The notes under the pieces were generated by a model. The model was not told the origin of the DNA. It saw nothing but the letters and a program-made list of their open reading frames with translations, and searched no databases. A program made the translations under genes and the position numbers. DNA of 64,000 nucleotides, taken from contig JANOQI010000016.1 in assembly GCA_031414775.1 (NCBI GenBank), positions 128,001 to 192,000 on the forward strand. Reading direction: 5' to 3'. Origin of the DNA: Synechococcales cyanobacterium VAR_4_metabat_354 (GTDB lineage: Bacteria; Cyanobacteriota; Cyanobacteriia; Cyanobacteriales; Chamaesiphonaceae). This document shows, one piece after another, positions 30,325-58,383 of the stretch (the stretch's first letter is position 1; each line of letters opens with the position of its first letter).

Positions 30325-30396
30325 GCCGATGTAGCTCAGTGGTAGAGCACTCGATTCGTAATCGAGCGGCCGTGAGTTCGACTCTCATCATCGGCT
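30325..30396 (+). tRNA. trnT: tRNA-Thr(CGT)
   Basis: GCCGATG acceptor / CATCGGC, D-arm AGCTCAGTGGTAGAGC, anticodon arm CTCGA-TTCGTAA-TCGAG, T-loop GTTCGAC. Confidence 0.96.
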
Positions 30397-32072: not shown

Positions 32073-32303
32073 AGAAAGAAAGGCGTGTACATCTGAGTGC
32101 TCAACAAATTTGGAAGGTACTAAAAAAAGGCGAAAAGATTGAGCGTTATTGCAGCACTATGACAAAGTTAGGGCTAGTAGAAGAAAGTTTAAATAGTGAA
32201 GCCTACTATTAAATGACAGAACCCAATAACGCTATAAATTAAGACCCGACTACTTACCGCAGCCGAGTACTTAAGGTGATAGAGAAATTACAGGCAATGA
32301 ATG

Positions 32304-32723
32304 TTAGCCGATCCGGGGAGAAGACATTAAGTCAATCGCCACCAACGAGATTTTGTTTTGGGAATCTAAAGAGAACCGCCAAGCCATATTGAGACCAGGA
32401 CTATCGCCAGACCAGGTAGTTTGCATCCTCCCAGTTACTCGCATCCTAGTCAGCTCATCATCTTGGTATGAAACCAAACCTTGGTCTGGCAATATCTTAA
32501 TATTCTGGCATTCCGCTTCGAGATAGCTCAGAATCTGCTCTTTGCCCACGATGGGCTGTTGAAAGGGTGGTTGCAGAGCACCACCAGTCACAAACAGATC
32601 GACTACGGCATCAAAATCATTAGCGTTCATACTACTCAAATATTCCAACACGGTGGAATTAGTAATGCTCTCGATCGCCCTTGGCGCTAGCAGAGTCATC
32701 GCTGAGTCAATAGTAGATGTCAT
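32304..32723 (-). CDS. Stand-alone OCP C-terminal (NTF2-like) domain protein, OCP-derived
   Basis: Aligns without gaps to the C-terminal domain of the OCP at 34968-35918 (MNANDFDAV, GALQPPFQ.PIVGK, ECQN, NMAWRF, VAIDL); GAGG RBS. Confidence 0.88.
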   Translation of the reverse strand: MTSTIDSAMTLLAPRAIESITNSTVLEYLSSMNANDFDAVVDLFVTGGALQPPFQQPIVGKEQILSYLEAECQNIKILPDQGLVSYQDDELTRMRVTGRMQTTWSGDSPGLNMAWRFSLDSQNKISLVAIDLMSSPRIG

Positions 32724-32954
32724 TATTTCCTCATTTTCTTATGCAAGAGGTTTAACTACTTTAGCTACTAAATTGTGAGGAATTAGAAGCTCAGCAGTTA
32801 CTGGCTATCTTATTATAAATATTTTATAAAGTTTATATTATCTTATACATTTTAAACATTTAGTTTTAAGTCATTATGATTAGGCCAAGATCATTATAAA
32901 GCTCTCCCAGACTAATGAAGGAGAGCTTGAAAGCAACAAATTACACATGTATTA

Positions 32955-33027: not shown

Positions 33028-33900
33028 TTAGAATGTGCGACTGCGCCACTTATTTAAACGGTATTCAGCGATACTAGCTAAGGCTCGTGCTTCTGATAAT
33101 TGGGCAGTCAAATCATCATTGCCAATAGTCGGTGAGGTACCTTTGGATACCACAGCAGCTCCCACGTTAGCCAAAGGCCGCAATTCGTCAATTTGTTGTT
33201 GCAGCGTGGTACTTTGATTACTGATGGCACTCACTGGCTGAACGACAGGTGGCACATAAACAGGTGTCGCAACGATCGTACTGTGCTGAAACAGATTGGC
33301 CAACATTTGATTAACATCTGTGAACTGAGTGGGTCCCACGGCATTGTAAATCAATACTTTTTGCAGCTTTGGTACATTGCCAGTAGTTAAATCTTTATCA
33401 CTACTAGCTGCCCCGCCCATCAAAGAGCGCATATTAGTTACAGCTTGCATAGACAAGCCATTTTGGGTAGAAAAACCTCGTGCAAATGGCACGACGTTTT
33501 CACCGTAAAAGTTTTGATACTCATCGCTATCTAAATAACTATCAATTTCAGCATCATGGCCACCCTCATCAAGGATGGTGCTGTGGGTACGCATTTCTTC
33601 AAAATCATCGGGTGCTCGCCCTAACAAATGTTTAAAGTTCAGTTCGATCGATCGATAGCGGTAGCAATTATCAAAAAATCTCGACAGGTACAGCTCAGAC
33701 TTGGCAACCTGGCGTACAAACTCGCGCACGCTAATTTCTCTGGCCTTTAACTGCGATTCCGGAACGACGAGCCGCTCACTTTCCATCACATAGGCATTAC
33801 CTAACACTTGACGATAAACGGCATTAATTAAGGTCTCAACAGCAGTGCTGCCATCATCCGATGACAGCCACACAGAACTCTTCGCAAAACTGCTAACCAT
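33028..33900 (-). CDS. Phycobilisome linker polypeptide (CpeC-like N-domain, atypical C-terminus)
   Basis: [57 protein letters not shown]; no CpcD-like C-terminal domain seen. Confidence 0.88.
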   Translation of the reverse strand: MVSSFAKSSVWLSSDDGSTAVETLINAVYRQVLGNAYVMESERLVVPESQLKAREISVREFVRQVAKSELYLSRFFDNCYRYRSIELNFKHLLGRAPDDFEEMRTHSTILDEGGHDAEIDSYLDSDEYQNFYGENVVPFARGFSTQNGLSMQAVTNMRSLMGGAASSDKDLTTGNVPKLQKVLIYNAVGPTQFTDVNQMLANLFQHSTIVATPVYVPPVVQPVSAISNQSTTLQQQIDELRPLANVGAAVVSKGTSPTIGNDDLTAQLSEARALASIAEYRLNKWRSRTF

Positions 33901-33949
33901 CGCAATAGCTCCTGGTTTATGAAAGGTGTTTTTAAAGTTAAAACATCAA

Positions 33950-33974
33950 CACCTCTTGCCAGTGGCAAGAGGTG
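33950..33974. terminator. Intercistronic hairpin between the two linker genes
   Basis: CACCTCTTGCC-AGT-GGCAAGAGGTG perfect 11-bp stem. Confidence 0.55.
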
Positions 33975-33998
33975 GAACAAGAAATTCTTAGCCTCGGA

Positions 33999-34760
33999 CT
34001 AAGCGATTTCTGTAATATTTAAAATTTTGCCGCCAGCTTTTTGAATGCTCTGGATTTTAGTCGAGAGCTGGGCATAGCTAATATCGAAAGATACACTGCT
34101 GCGGGCAGTACGGGAGGCATATTTAACACTGCTAGTTGCAATCCGAAAACGCTTACTAGTATTGCTATAACCACCAGAACCATTGCGAGGAGCACTAATT
34201 TTGGTTGCTAAGTTACCACCAATATCGCTGATGAGTTTGGCTGATTTACCAATATCATTAGCGGCAAAACCCCGATTGATCGCAAAAGTACGATTGAAGC
34301 CGACGTTTTTAATACCAGCTTGGGTCTGATTGCCGCGCACCGATGGTACAATCGCATCCCCAAAGTTGTCTACATACTCATTACTGTCAATATAAGAATT
34401 GATTTCAGCTTCATAGCCGTGATTGTTGTAGATTTGAACATGTTCAGCGATTTCGGCTTGATCTTGCGGTGCCCGACCGAGCAAATGCTTGAAGTTTAAT
34501 TCAATAAAACGATAAGCCGAGGAACTTTCAAAAAATAGTGATTTGTATAGATCAGAATTAGCTACTGCTCTGACAAATTCTCTGACGGTGATATCCCCGT
34601 TACGCAGTAAGGATTCAGCACTATCTAAACGCTGACTTTCCATCACATGAGCATTACCCAAAACTTGACGATAGGCGGCGCGGATCACGCCTTGCAGATC
34701 GTCTTCAGTGGCATTAGAACGCAATTCTACTTGATCGGAATTATTTATCCAAAGAGACAT
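33999..34760 (-). CDS. cpeE: Phycoerythrin-associated rod linker CpeE
   Basis: MSLWI...[55 protein letters not shown]-terminal CpcD-like [22 protein letters not shown], matching my recollection of CpeE. Confidence 0.82.
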
Positions 34761-34967: not shown

Positions 34968-35918
34968 TTAGCGAATGTAGTTCAATAGTTCTTTGGGGGA
35001 AGCTAATAGATCGATCGCTACGAAGAAGATTTTACCTTCGGGATCGAGTAAGAAACGCCAAGCCATGTTCATACCAACATTGGCACCAAACCAAGGAGTT
35101 TGCACTTTGCCAGTGACTTTAATCTGATTATAGCTACCTTCCGCTGGCTCAATGGTGCCCCGCTCCGGAATCAGCTTCAGGTTTTGGCATTCTTCTTGCA
35201 GGTAACGAAAAACAGCATCTTTACCAACAATCGGTCTTTGGAAAGGAGGTTGTAGAGCACCGTCGGTGTCAAAAAGAGCAATAACAGCATCGAAGTCATT
35301 GGCATTCATGTTGTTGATGTAGCTCAAGACGGTGGCATTATCTACGCCTTCGATCGAGACAGCTTTCCGCAGTGCTATTTCTTGAGGTAAAACCATCGGC
35401 TCAGATACTTTTGCCGCCCCTTCACCGATATAACCCATGTCTACTACGGTATTTCGTAATACCGTAATCTGTTGACCCTGCTCTAGATCACGAATGGCTT
35501 GTAGAATGGCGGATGCGTTGGCGGAAAGCTTATAGCCTTCTGGGATGGGGGCAACAAGACCTTCAGCCATCCACTCCCCTAATTGATACCAAAAACCTAA
35601 CTTGATGTTGGGAGTAAAAACACCGTAGGCACGACAGACTTCGTTGTCGGCGCGGTTCGCCAAGTCGCACATGGCTTGGGACTGTTCAGTGAAAGACATC
35701 GCCTTAATTTGGTTCAGCAAGCCCTGCGCCAAAATCATACTAGCAGCGCCCGGTGCCGCTACAGTAATGGTGGTACCCATTTCTTCGTAGGCAAACCAAA
35801 TTAGGGCTAACTGATCTTCAGCACTGAGTTGATTGAAGCGAGCGATCGTCGCTGGTACAGCATCAGCAGTCAGAGTGCCGGGGAAAATGCCGCGTGCAGA
35901 ATCAATAGTGAATGACAT
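34968..35918 (-). CDS. ocp: Orange carotenoid protein
   Basis: MSFTIDSARGIFP, EDQLALIWFAY, NIKLGFWY, GQQITVLRN, KVQTPWFG, FVAIDLLASPKELL; 316 aa. Confidence 0.97.
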   Translation of the reverse strand: MSFTIDSARGIFPGTLTADAVPATIARFNQLSAEDQLALIWFAYEEMGTTITVAAPGAASMILAQGLLNQIKAMSFTEQSQAMCDLANRADNEVCRAYGVFTPNIKLGFWYQLGEWMAEGLVAPIPEGYKLSANASAILQAIRDLEQGQQITVLRNTVVDMGYIGEGAAKVSEPMVLPQEIALRKAVSIEGVDNATVLSYINNMNANDFDAVIALFDTDGALQPPFQRPIVGKDAVFRYLQEECQNLKLIPERGTIEPAEGSYNQIKVTGKVQTPWFGANVGMNMAWRFLLDPEGKIFFVAIDLLASPKELLNYIR

Positions 35919-36042: not shown

Positions 36043-36732
36043 TTATTTAACAGATGGTAACTTATACCAAGGCAGCTGGGGATATTCATGATGCTCCCAG
36101 TGATAGCCAAAATGGTAACAGGTCAACAAAGACCACAGGGTTGATAAGTTGCTGCTGCGCGATCGATGTTCTCCCAAGTTGACTGGGGAATGATGGGGCA
36201 GAAAAGTACCAAAATAGAAGAGCTGGAGCGAGCTGAGCAAGATCGGCAGCACCCAGAACAACAGCAAGTTAGCGATCGATACTTGCCCGAACCAGTACAA
36301 ACAAATAAAAATAGTAGCCATTCCCAGCAGTAATGTCCAAACTTGTCGGCGCGGCACCCCGACTAAATAACCGCGCATAAATTGGAGATACCATTGCCCA
36401 ATCCCCTGTTCACAAAAATCTGGGTCTAGCTCAGTGGCTGGATGCTGGTGATGGAGCTGGTGTTTAGCTTGCAGGGCAGAATAGGACAAAAAAGCGTAGA
36501 GAGTAGTACAAAGTCTGCCAACGAAATGGTTTAGGCGGGGATGATCGATCGAGACTGTGCCATGCATCGCATCATGAGCCGTCACAAACAGTCCGGTATG
36601 GAAAAAAGTCCGCAGCGCAATCACCGCCAGGATTATCATTAGCGGACAGTGAGCAACATCCAGCCAACAAGCCCCCACCAGGCTTACTGTCCAAGCAGTC
36701 AATAGCAGCAAAGGAACCAGTAGGCCAACCAA
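36043..36732 (-). CDS. crtW: Beta-carotene ketolase
   Basis: His boxes HTGLFVTAHDAMHG, HQLHH, CYHFGYHWEHH; LQLFYFGTFLPH; adjacent to ocp. Confidence 0.88.
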   Translation of the reverse strand: MVGLLVPLLLLTAWTVSLVGACWLDVAHCPLMIILAVIALRTFFHTGLFVTAHDAMHGTVSIDHPRLNHFVGRLCTTLYAFLSYSALQAKHQLHHQHPATELDPDFCEQGIGQWYLQFMRGYLVGVPRRQVWTLLLGMATIFICLYWFGQVSIANLLLFWVLPILLSSLQLFYFGTFLPHHSPVNLGEHRSRSSNLSTLWSLLTCYHFGYHWEHHEYPQLPWYKLPSVK

Positions 36733-58283: not shown

Positions 58284-58288
58284 CAAAA

Positions 58289-58373
58289 CGGAGAGGGAGA
58301 GATTCGAACTCTCGGAAGCTTTCACTTCATCCGATTTCAAGTCGGACGCGATCGACCACTCTGCCACCTCTCC
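58289..58373 (-). tRNA. trnS: tRNA-Ser(TGA)
   Basis: Reverse complement GGAGAGGTGGCAGAGTGG...TCCGA-CTTGAAA-TCGGA, long variable arm GAAG-TGAAAG-CTTC, GTTCGAATC, CCTCTCCG. Confidence 0.96.
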
Positions 58374-58383
58374 AGCAGGTTTT

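What the first reader, a model, noticed from the sequence alone, without database searches (positions are those of the whole stretch)
32304..32723. 'Mini-OCP': OCP N-terminal extension fused directly to the C-terminal domain, effector domain deleted
Seen: residues 16-139 align without gaps to the CTD of the neighbouring OCP (about 66/124 identical by hand count). Its first residues MTSTIDSA match OCP's MSFTIDSA, also at DNA level (ATGACATCTACTATTGACTCAGCG vs ATGTCATTCACTATTGATTCTGCA). It keeps the OCP-type loop (WSGDSPGLNMAW vs WFGANVGMNMAW) and the Tyr (VLEYL) and Trp (MAWRF) equivalent to the keto-carotenoid H-bonding Y201/W288. It changes KIFF to KISL and lacks the C-terminal tail KELL. Known: canonical CTDH carotenoid carriers form a separate clade, with a shorter loop at this position as I recall; the NTE packs on the CTD sheet where FRP binds, and F299 is implicated in FRP binding. 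Inference: a local OCP duplicate that lost the quenching NTD and may act as a carotenoid shuttle, a decoy or an FRP substitute.
Basis: partly seen in the sequence, partly recalled or inferred. Interest (0 to 1): 0.8.

Follow-up and report, generated by a model that had tools for sequence, protein, structure and literature searches.

The report
Trimmed orange carotenoid protein offshoot
A small, conserved cyanobacterial gene is a second copy of the light-protection protein OCP that first changed one surface and then lost its energy-quenching half; it probably still holds carotenoid pigment, and it is a natural reversal of the gene fusion that created OCP.

Summary
In detail: a 139-aa stand-alone OCP C-terminal domain, 66/124 identical to the neighbouring OCP1. 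It is under purifying selection (dN/dS 0.10-0.15), syntenic in 4 of 12 genus genomes, and not a CTDH (AU p=0.0056). (1) Only 7-8 N-terminal residues match OCP, and the residues that dock the NTE are gone, so the 'NTE' is a leftover stub. (2) Its sister is a full-length divergent OCP (P0188/P0293; support 100/99) that already carries the family's rewritten hairpin, so divergence came before loss of the NTD. (3) The FRP-binding face is erased (F299S, F/Y264L, L291S, R229Q/L), which argues against an FRP decoy. The deep pocket (Y201, W288) is invariant, the tunnel mouth and tail are eroding, and the new hairpin is more conserved than in OCP1. Best reading: a keto-carotenoid holder insulated from FRP, with a new docking surface (0.5). 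No expression or binding data exist. New variant of a known kind; I found no description in eight literature searches.

The parts
32304..32723 (-). CTD-only OCP derivative, 139 aa (NTF2 fold)
   Evidence: model pLDDT 85 overall, closest solved folds are OCP CTDs
32700..32723 (-). Codons 1-8, remnant of the OCP start (NTE stub)
   Evidence: 0 of 5249 null N-termini score as high; low confidence in the model
32436..32480 (-). Family signature hairpin (OCP positions 255-269), rewritten and highly conserved
   Evidence: 11 of 15 positions invariant in 23 members vs 5 of 15 in 34 OCP1 rows; also present in full-length P0188/P0293
32724..32738 (-). Conserved 5' leader with ribosome-binding motif
   Evidence: aligned in 4 genomes; reads as the same ENEEI peptide upstream of the start in distant member P0169
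32807..32853 (-). Conserved AT-rich upstream block, candidate promoter or operator (inferred)
   Evidence: conserved in 4 genomes whose synonymous sites have diverged by 0.3-1.7
32899..32928 (-). Stem-loop between the linker gene and the CTD-only gene, possible terminator
32244..32268 (-). Terminator-like stem-loop after the gene
33028..33900 (-). Phycobilisome linker-domain protein, 290 aa
   Evidence: PF00427
33999..34760 (-). Phycobilisome linker with CpcD domain (CpeE-like; that name is recalled)
   Evidence: PF00427 + PF01383
34968..35918 (-). Full-length OCP1, the only Carot_N gene found in the genome
   Evidence: FRP lies elsewhere on the contig
36043..36732 (-). Beta-carotene ketolase CrtW-like
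   Evidence: NF045690, 255 bits, below its 350 cut-off

Best explanation
Origin (well supported): an OCP1 gene was duplicated. The copy diverged while still full length, gaining a new conserved hairpin and L291S. An in-frame deletion then removed the NTD, leaving the first codons, a spacer of variable length and the CTD. Afterwards F299, F278, R/K229, D220 and, in most members, the tail were lost. Function (inferred): a soluble keto-carotenoid holder, a natural counterpart of the engineered CTD dimer 'COCP'. Y201 and W288 hold a keto ring; the other half of the pigment is covered by a second subunit or handed to apo-OCP1. The rewritten beta-sheet face keeps it from recruiting FRP or joining OCP-red dimers, and the invariant hairpin gives it a docking or dimer surface of its own. 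It cannot quench phycobilisomes or photoswitch alone.
For: Shown: intact in 4 genomes, dN/dS 0.10-0.15, all six pairs p<=1e-9. Clade with full-length P0188/P0293 at 100/99, inside OCP1 at 93/90. Y201, W288, L223, P225, P226, E244, C245 and I303 invariant in 23 of 23. F299 is S/T/V, 264 is L, 291 is S and 229 is Q/L in 23 of 23, while OCP1 has F/Y299, F/Y264, L291 and R/K229 in 34 of 34. It lies 3.3 kb from a CrtW-like ketolase; no canonical CTDH was found in G000, G001 or G007. Literature: isolated OCP CTDs bind canthaxanthin as homodimers (10.1101/102160, passages) and pass it to apo-OCP (10.1101/127183, abstract).
Against: In Anabaena CTDH both the four-residue-longer loop and loss of the tail reduce uptake, to 20% without the tail (PMC6123778 section 10); this protein has both handicaps. 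The tunnel mouth is the least conserved part: F278 is lost in 23 of 23 and W277 in 9 of 23. 50 of 119 positions are invariant anyway, so invariance of two residues is only moderate evidence. G000 has no HCP to receive pigment, and OCP can load itself from membranes. Five genus genomes show neither CTDH nor this gene, and G003 has both. No expression or binding data.
Confidence: 0.5

Rival explanations
1. Adaptor with a new partner: selection acts mainly on the rewritten hairpin face, which binds something other than FRP (itself, a membrane, a phycobilisome component). The pocket is kept for folding or for a different small ligand.
For: Constraint has shifted: hairpin 11 of 15 positions invariant (OCP1 5 of 15), mouth loop 0 of 8 (OCP1 4 of 8). 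The hairpin predates NTD loss and survived it. Two phycobilisome linker genes sit between ocp and this gene in all 4 carriers.
Against: No partner identified. The linker genes occur without this gene in other genus genomes. The 4 carriers form one clade, so synteny is a single event.
Confidence: 0.22
2. Off-switch in trans (FRP substitute): the free CTD caps the exposed NTD of red OCP1, or pulls the carotenoid out of it, and so ends quenching.
For: E244, the partner of R155, is invariant. Split NTD and CTD can form an orange heterodimer. FRP of all 4 carriers has Arg at position 55, where 37 of 37 other FRPs have F, Y or L.
Against: Split OCP1 halves did not re-associate after illumination, even with FRP. 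W277 and F278 at the NTD interface are eroded. E244 is also kept in 36 of 39 CTDH-type rows, so it is not specific. The carriers' FRP keeps R60, F76 and K102. The FRP change is one phylogenetic event.
Confidence: 0.13
3. FRP decoy: it titrates FRP and prolongs quenching.
For: The isolated OCP1 CTD binds FRP (10.1101/247882, passages). V232, Q224, R289 and D304 on the sheet are kept. FRP is present in all 4 carriers.
Against: F299 is at the FRP interface (PMC6155142). A non-aromatic residue at 264 is linked to loss of FRP binding in OCPx, and Leu300 to weak binding. The family has lost 299 and 264 in 23 of 23, and 300 is Leu in 13 of 23.
Confidence: 0.07
4. Slowly decaying duplicate with no current role.
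For: dN/dS is 3-6 times that of OCP; the ends erode stepwise; absent from 8 of 12 genus genomes.
Against: No stop or frameshift inside the domain in the 4 genomes at dS up to 1.7; dN/dS 0.10-0.15; conserved leader and upstream block; new invariant residues.
Confidence: 0.05

Closest known systems
CTDH / CCP (CTDH1, CTDH2; Anabaena All4940)
   Same: Stand-alone NTF2 domain of about 140 aa; Y201 and W288 equivalents; no effector domain.
   Different: Separate origin (AU p=0.0056); keeps the four-residue loop that CTDHs lack; Ser/Tyr instead of Phe/Cys at 278; next to ocp, not hcp; tail mostly lost; unique hairpin. 90 bits against All4940 vs 151 against OCP.
COCP / CCP made by cutting OCP1 (engineered CTD dimer)
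   Same: OCP1-type CTD without the NTD and with the long loop; the engineered form binds canthaxanthin and donates it to apo-OCP.
   Different: COCP is a laboratory construct with a native FRP face and tail, and it binds FRP. This is a natural gene with that face rewritten and the mouth aromatic lost.
OCP1
   Same: The CTD falls inside OCP1; 53% identical to the neighbouring OCP; shares the first 7-8 residues.
   Different: No NTD or R155, so no quenching and no photocycle alone; NTE docking residues R9 and R229 lost.
Full-length divergent OCP P0188/P0293 (unnamed, from two public sources)
   Same: Same hairpin motif, L291S and 264L, and a similar linker end; sister group at 100/99.
   Different: Retains the NTD with R155, F299/F300, W277/F278, D220, K229 and the tail; 55% identical to the window OCP.

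Membership tests
CTDH/CCP | Stand-alone NTF2-like domain homologous to the OCP CTD | tested here: met
CTDH/CCP | Lacks the four residues after position 278 (PMC6123778) | tested here: not met
   gap in 38-39 of 39 CTDH-type rows, in 0 of 16 family rows
CTDH/CCP | Phe (clade 1) or Cys (clade 2) at 278 (PMC7512017) | tested here: not met
   Ser 21, Tyr 2 of 23
CTDH/CCP | Y201 and W288 equivalents | tested here: met
   23 of 23
CTDH/CCP | Groups with the CTDH clade | tested here: not met
   AU p=0.0056; the CTDH label is mine, from tree position and loop length
CTDH/CCP | Often adjacent to an HCP4/5 gene | tested here: not met
   neighbours are linker genes and ocp; only one Carot_N gene in G000
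CTDH/CCP | C-terminal tail aiding uptake | tested here: not met
   absent here and in 13 of 23; full in 6
CTDH/CCP | Binds keto-carotenoid as a dimer and transfers it | not testable with these tools
   needs expression in pigment-producing cells
OCP1 | N-terminal effector domain PF09150 | tested here: not met
OCP1 | CTD sequence inside the OCP1 clade | tested here: met
   94/90 and 93/90, not starred; a grouping with OCP2 is not formally rejected, p=0.088; the NTD of the full-length sister also falls in OCP1, 90/97
OCP1 | NTE (residues 1-12 to 1-20) docked on the sheet via D6-R229, R9-Q224 and F300 | tested here: not met
   match ends at residue 8; position 9 is Met; 229 is Q/L in 23 of 23
OCP1 | FRP-binding face (F299, aromatic 264) | tested here: not met
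   sequence test only, binding not measured
FRP | PF18032 helical fold | tested here: not met
   a separate FRP gene exists

The most novel reading that the evidence does not exclude
This clade has rewired its photoprotection off-switch. An OCP1 paralogue evolved a new docking face, shed its effector domain, and now works as a small partner that caps red OCP1 or exchanges carotenoid with it, beside an FRP altered at an otherwise aromatic or hydrophobic position. It would be a third regulatory component of OCP quenching, with its full-length evolutionary intermediate still alive.
Probability: 0.15. Interest if true: 0.85.

Novelty: new variant of a known kind. Interest (0 to 1): 0.6.

Why it matters
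The accepted view is that OCP arose by fusion of an HCP and a CTDH, and that stand-alone CTD homologues fall into two old clades. This family runs the other way: a conserved CTD-only gene cut out of OCP1. Nature supplies a graded series: canonical OCP1, a full-length paralogue with the new hairpin, CTD-only forms with a tail, and forms without it. That series allows direct tests of which features a free CTD needs to bind and pass on carotenoid, and how a domain escapes FRP control. It also bears on the open question, raised for engineered COCP, of whether a CTD carrier helps load OCP in living cells. The full-length paralogue is itself an uncharacterised OCP type. Reach is limited: one subclade of one genus, seen here only in draft assemblies.

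Tried and rejected
Canonical CTDH: rejected by tree, AU test, loop length and residue 278. Assembly artefact or frameshifted OCP: rejected; intact gene with its own leader in 4 genomes, and contigs of 4 public runs cover it. Direct copy of the subclade's own OCP: not favoured but not rejected (p=0.116); of 12 genus-diagnostic sites the family has mainly the genus state at 4, the outside state at 2 (split at one more) and neither at 5. NTD remnant in the 39-residue spacer of P0169: best p=0.054 among 21 comparisons, not significant. Expression: no RNA holder listed; uninformative. First structure model from 16 sequences was poor (pLDDT 55); the second leaves residues 1-15 below 50, but its alignment is heterogeneous there, so it says little about the stub. 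Metagenome and viral scans for more loci found none, although the pattern matches the known members, so the gene context of the distant members and of P0188/P0293 is unknown. Five short open frames in the class search were contig edges or a frameshifted OCP. A recalled HLR1 consensus gave no hit upstream of the gene. The sigma-70 scan was near chance, 14 vs 9.4. The ESM Atlas gave only cyanobacterial NTF2 clusters. Four look-ups of earlier scan findings returned nothing. A role for D220 in FRP action is recalled; two searches did not confirm it.

Full report
Observation. The ORF at 32304-32723 (minus strand, 139 aa) is as described. Residues 16-139 align without gaps to the OCP at 34968-35918 with 66 identities. 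Pfam finds only NTF2 in it, and Carot_N plus NTF2 in the neighbour. Alignment to solved OCP gives the numbering n+173, used below. A model from an 89-sequence alignment has mean pLDDT 85 and matches OCP CTDs best.

Surroundings. The order is crtW-like, ocp, two phycobilisome linker genes, then this gene, all on the minus strand. Stem-loops follow ocp, the second linker and this gene. A leader and an AT-rich block upstream are conserved in four genomes, which suggests its own transcription unit (inference). The genome (99.96% complete) shows one Carot_N gene, no HCP, no canonical CTDH, and one FRP about 134 kb away on the same contig. The OCP is OCP1: 530-509 bits against the top PDB entries, 459-440 against the OCP2 entries and 383-350 against two OCPx entries; two control proteins sorted to OCPx and OCP2 (entry titles).

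Distribution. Orthologues at 94, 82 and 72% identity lie at the same position in G001, G007 and G003. That is 4 of 12 genus genomes and 4 of 39 family genomes, and 4 of 401 order genomes at E<=1e-57. In a class sample of 401 only G000 scored in the family's range; the best 150 matches were listed and 170 weaker ones were not. The carriers' OCPs and FRPs group together, so the four count as one event. Protein searches gave 15 clusters and one more diverged pair. I aligned 23 sequences, several of them near-copies. Three named records of orthologues are MAGs labelled 'Synechococcales cyanobacterium' or 'uncultured bacterium'; the lineage is not otherwise established here.

Selection. Pairwise dN/dS is 0.10-0.15 across six pairs at dS 0.29-1.69, against 0.02-0.04 for ocp and 0.04-0.11 for the linkers. 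The gene is constrained, though less than OCP.

Origin. In a 47-row tree the family is a clade (100/100) inside OCP1+OCP2 (99/95) and OCP1 (94/90). Forcing it with CTDHs is rejected (p=0.0056); forcing it with the genus OCPs is not (p=0.43). Forcing it with OCP2 gives p=0.088, so the OCP1 placement is likely rather than proven by the CTD alone. Rows were chosen by me to cover each group, and two OCP1 rows were picked for scoring best against the family. A profile search then found P0188, a 317-aa protein with both domains and 65% identity to our protein, and a cluster mate from a second source, P0293. Both carry the family hairpin, Leu264 and Ser291, yet keep R155, F299/F300, W277/F278, D220, K229 and the tail. 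Their NTD is itself diverged (55% overall identity to the window OCP; long branch inside OCP1), which argues against a mis-assembly of the neighbouring genes. They are sister to the CTD-only forms at 100/99, and the CTD-only forms remain a clade at 100/94. The order of events is therefore duplication, divergence at full length, NTD deletion, then erosion. P0293 and a partial genus-type OCP (P0291) both list a longest contig of 1702 bases. A tandem arrangement would fit, but this is only a hint.

The N-terminus. The first eight residues match OCP better than all 5249 null N-termini. Seven of 15 family members do as well; the others are matched by 2 to 170 of 5249. Of 22 CTDH-type controls only P0034 does, and it has an OCP-type loop itself. 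The basal member P0169 starts MTFTINS. So the gene kept the parent's start. The match ends at residue 8, and the distance from the start to the domain varies from about 16 to 46 residues. The residues just before the domain resemble the linker end of P0188. The NTE is held by Arg229-Asp6, Gln224-Arg9 and Phe300 (10.1101/2023.08.20.554024, passages). Here 229 is Q/L in 23 of 23, position 9 is Met, and the tail it packs beside is gone. A docked NTE is unlikely (inference).

Which surfaces are kept. The deep pocket is kept: Y201, L223, P225, P226, E244, C245, W288 and I303 are invariant in 23 of 23, and 205, 248, 250, 273, 284 and 286 stay hydrophobic. That pocket list is recalled, except Y201, W288, W277, E244 and the PPF patch. 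The mouth is eroded: 278 is Ser or Tyr, W277 is lost in 9 of 23, and loop 276-283 has 0 of 8 invariant positions against 4 of 8 in 34 OCP1 rows. The FRP, NTE and red-dimer face is rewritten: F299S/T/V, F/Y264L, L291S and R229Q/L in all 23, and D220G in 21. F299 is at the FRP interface (PMC6155142, passages; PMC10932109, passages). The same surface forms the red-state dimer, and Ser264 is linked to loss of FRP binding in OCPx (PMC10172135, passages and sections 6 and 11). The hairpin 255-269 has 11 of 15 invariant positions against 5 of 15 in OCP1, while overall invariance is similar (50 vs 47 of 119). Constraint has moved to a new surface.

Mechanism. I commit to a keto-carotenoid holder insulated from FRP (0.5). 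Isolated OCP CTDs bind canthaxanthin as dimers (10.1101/102160, passages) and donate it to apo-OCP (10.1101/127183, abstract only). Against this, the long loop and tail loss each hamper uptake in Anabaena CTDH (PMC6123778, first seventh of the text, section 10 and passages). There is also no HCP acceptor here, five genus genomes show neither CTDH nor this gene, and G003 has both. The rivals are a hairpin-based adaptor (0.22), an off-switch acting on red OCP in trans (0.13), an FRP decoy (0.07) and decay (0.05). One lead for the off-switch: FRP has Arg55 in the 4 carriers and F, Y or L in 37 of 37 others, but that is a single event in one clade. Origin, conservation and residue changes are shown; binding, dimerisation, partner and expression are inferred or unknown.

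Novelty. It works like a CTDH/COCP but fails the CTDH membership tests (PMC7512017, first sixth and passages). The papers read describe two CTDH clades and fusion as the direction of evolution. Also consulted as passages: PMC11087925, 10.1101/247882, PMC9388578 and PMC6971039. Eight searches listed no paper describing a natural CTD-only gene derived from OCP1, or the full-length paralogue. The library lacks most subscription journals and I read no supplements, so the large OCP/CTDH survey trees could hold such sequences unnoticed. Other stand-alone OCP-type CTDs outside this family (P0022, P0034, L056) suggest that NTD loss recurs.

Verdict. Real, conserved and apparently undescribed; a new variant of a known kind with a living evolutionary intermediate. 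Interest 0.6.

Noticed in passing
P0188, P0293: Full-length divergent OCP1 paralogue with a rewritten CTD hairpin and a diverged NTD; sister of the CTD-only family and an uncharacterised OCP type in its own right.
   Followed up: partly
L001, L108, L109, L110 (FRP genes): FRP has Arg at position 55 in the four carrier genomes; 37 other FRPs have F, Y or L. In G000 frp is not next to ocp.
   Followed up: partly
P0034: 137-aa protein with an OCP-like start, OCP-type long loop, Phe at 201 and no tail: an apparently independent start-plus-CTD derivative, single cluster member.
   Followed up: partly
P0022, P0171, P0172: Stand-alone CTD that falls on a long branch among OCP1s, outside this family.
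   Followed up: partly
L056:4947-5417: OCP2-type linker plus CTD in a complete Nostoc genome with no NTD match within 5 kb; remnant or another CTD-only form.
   Followed up: no
P0175 cluster (452 aa): OCP with a second, CTDH-type domain fused at its C-terminus, 60 cluster members.
   Followed up: no
P0178, P0187, P0021, P0049: OCP or CTD joined to a desaturase/ketolase, a NUDIX domain or other N-terminal sequence; one or two members each where listed, may be assembly or calling artefacts.
   Followed up: no
L044, L048 (G003): Two HCP-CTDH pairs: in one the HCP is split over two frames, in the other the CTDH frame ends early.
   Followed up: no
window 33028-34760: The two linker genes lie between ocp and the CTD-only gene in the carriers; in four other genus genomes the 290-aa linker lies elsewhere.
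   Followed up: partly
L116 (G007:C105): HCP-like gene at a contig end, two genes from a second CrtW-like gene.
   Followed up: no
window 30325-30396 and 58288-58374: tRNA-Thr(cgt) 1.9 kb downstream of the gene, and tRNA-Ser(tga). Genes downstream of the CTD-only gene differ among the four carriers.
   Followed up: no
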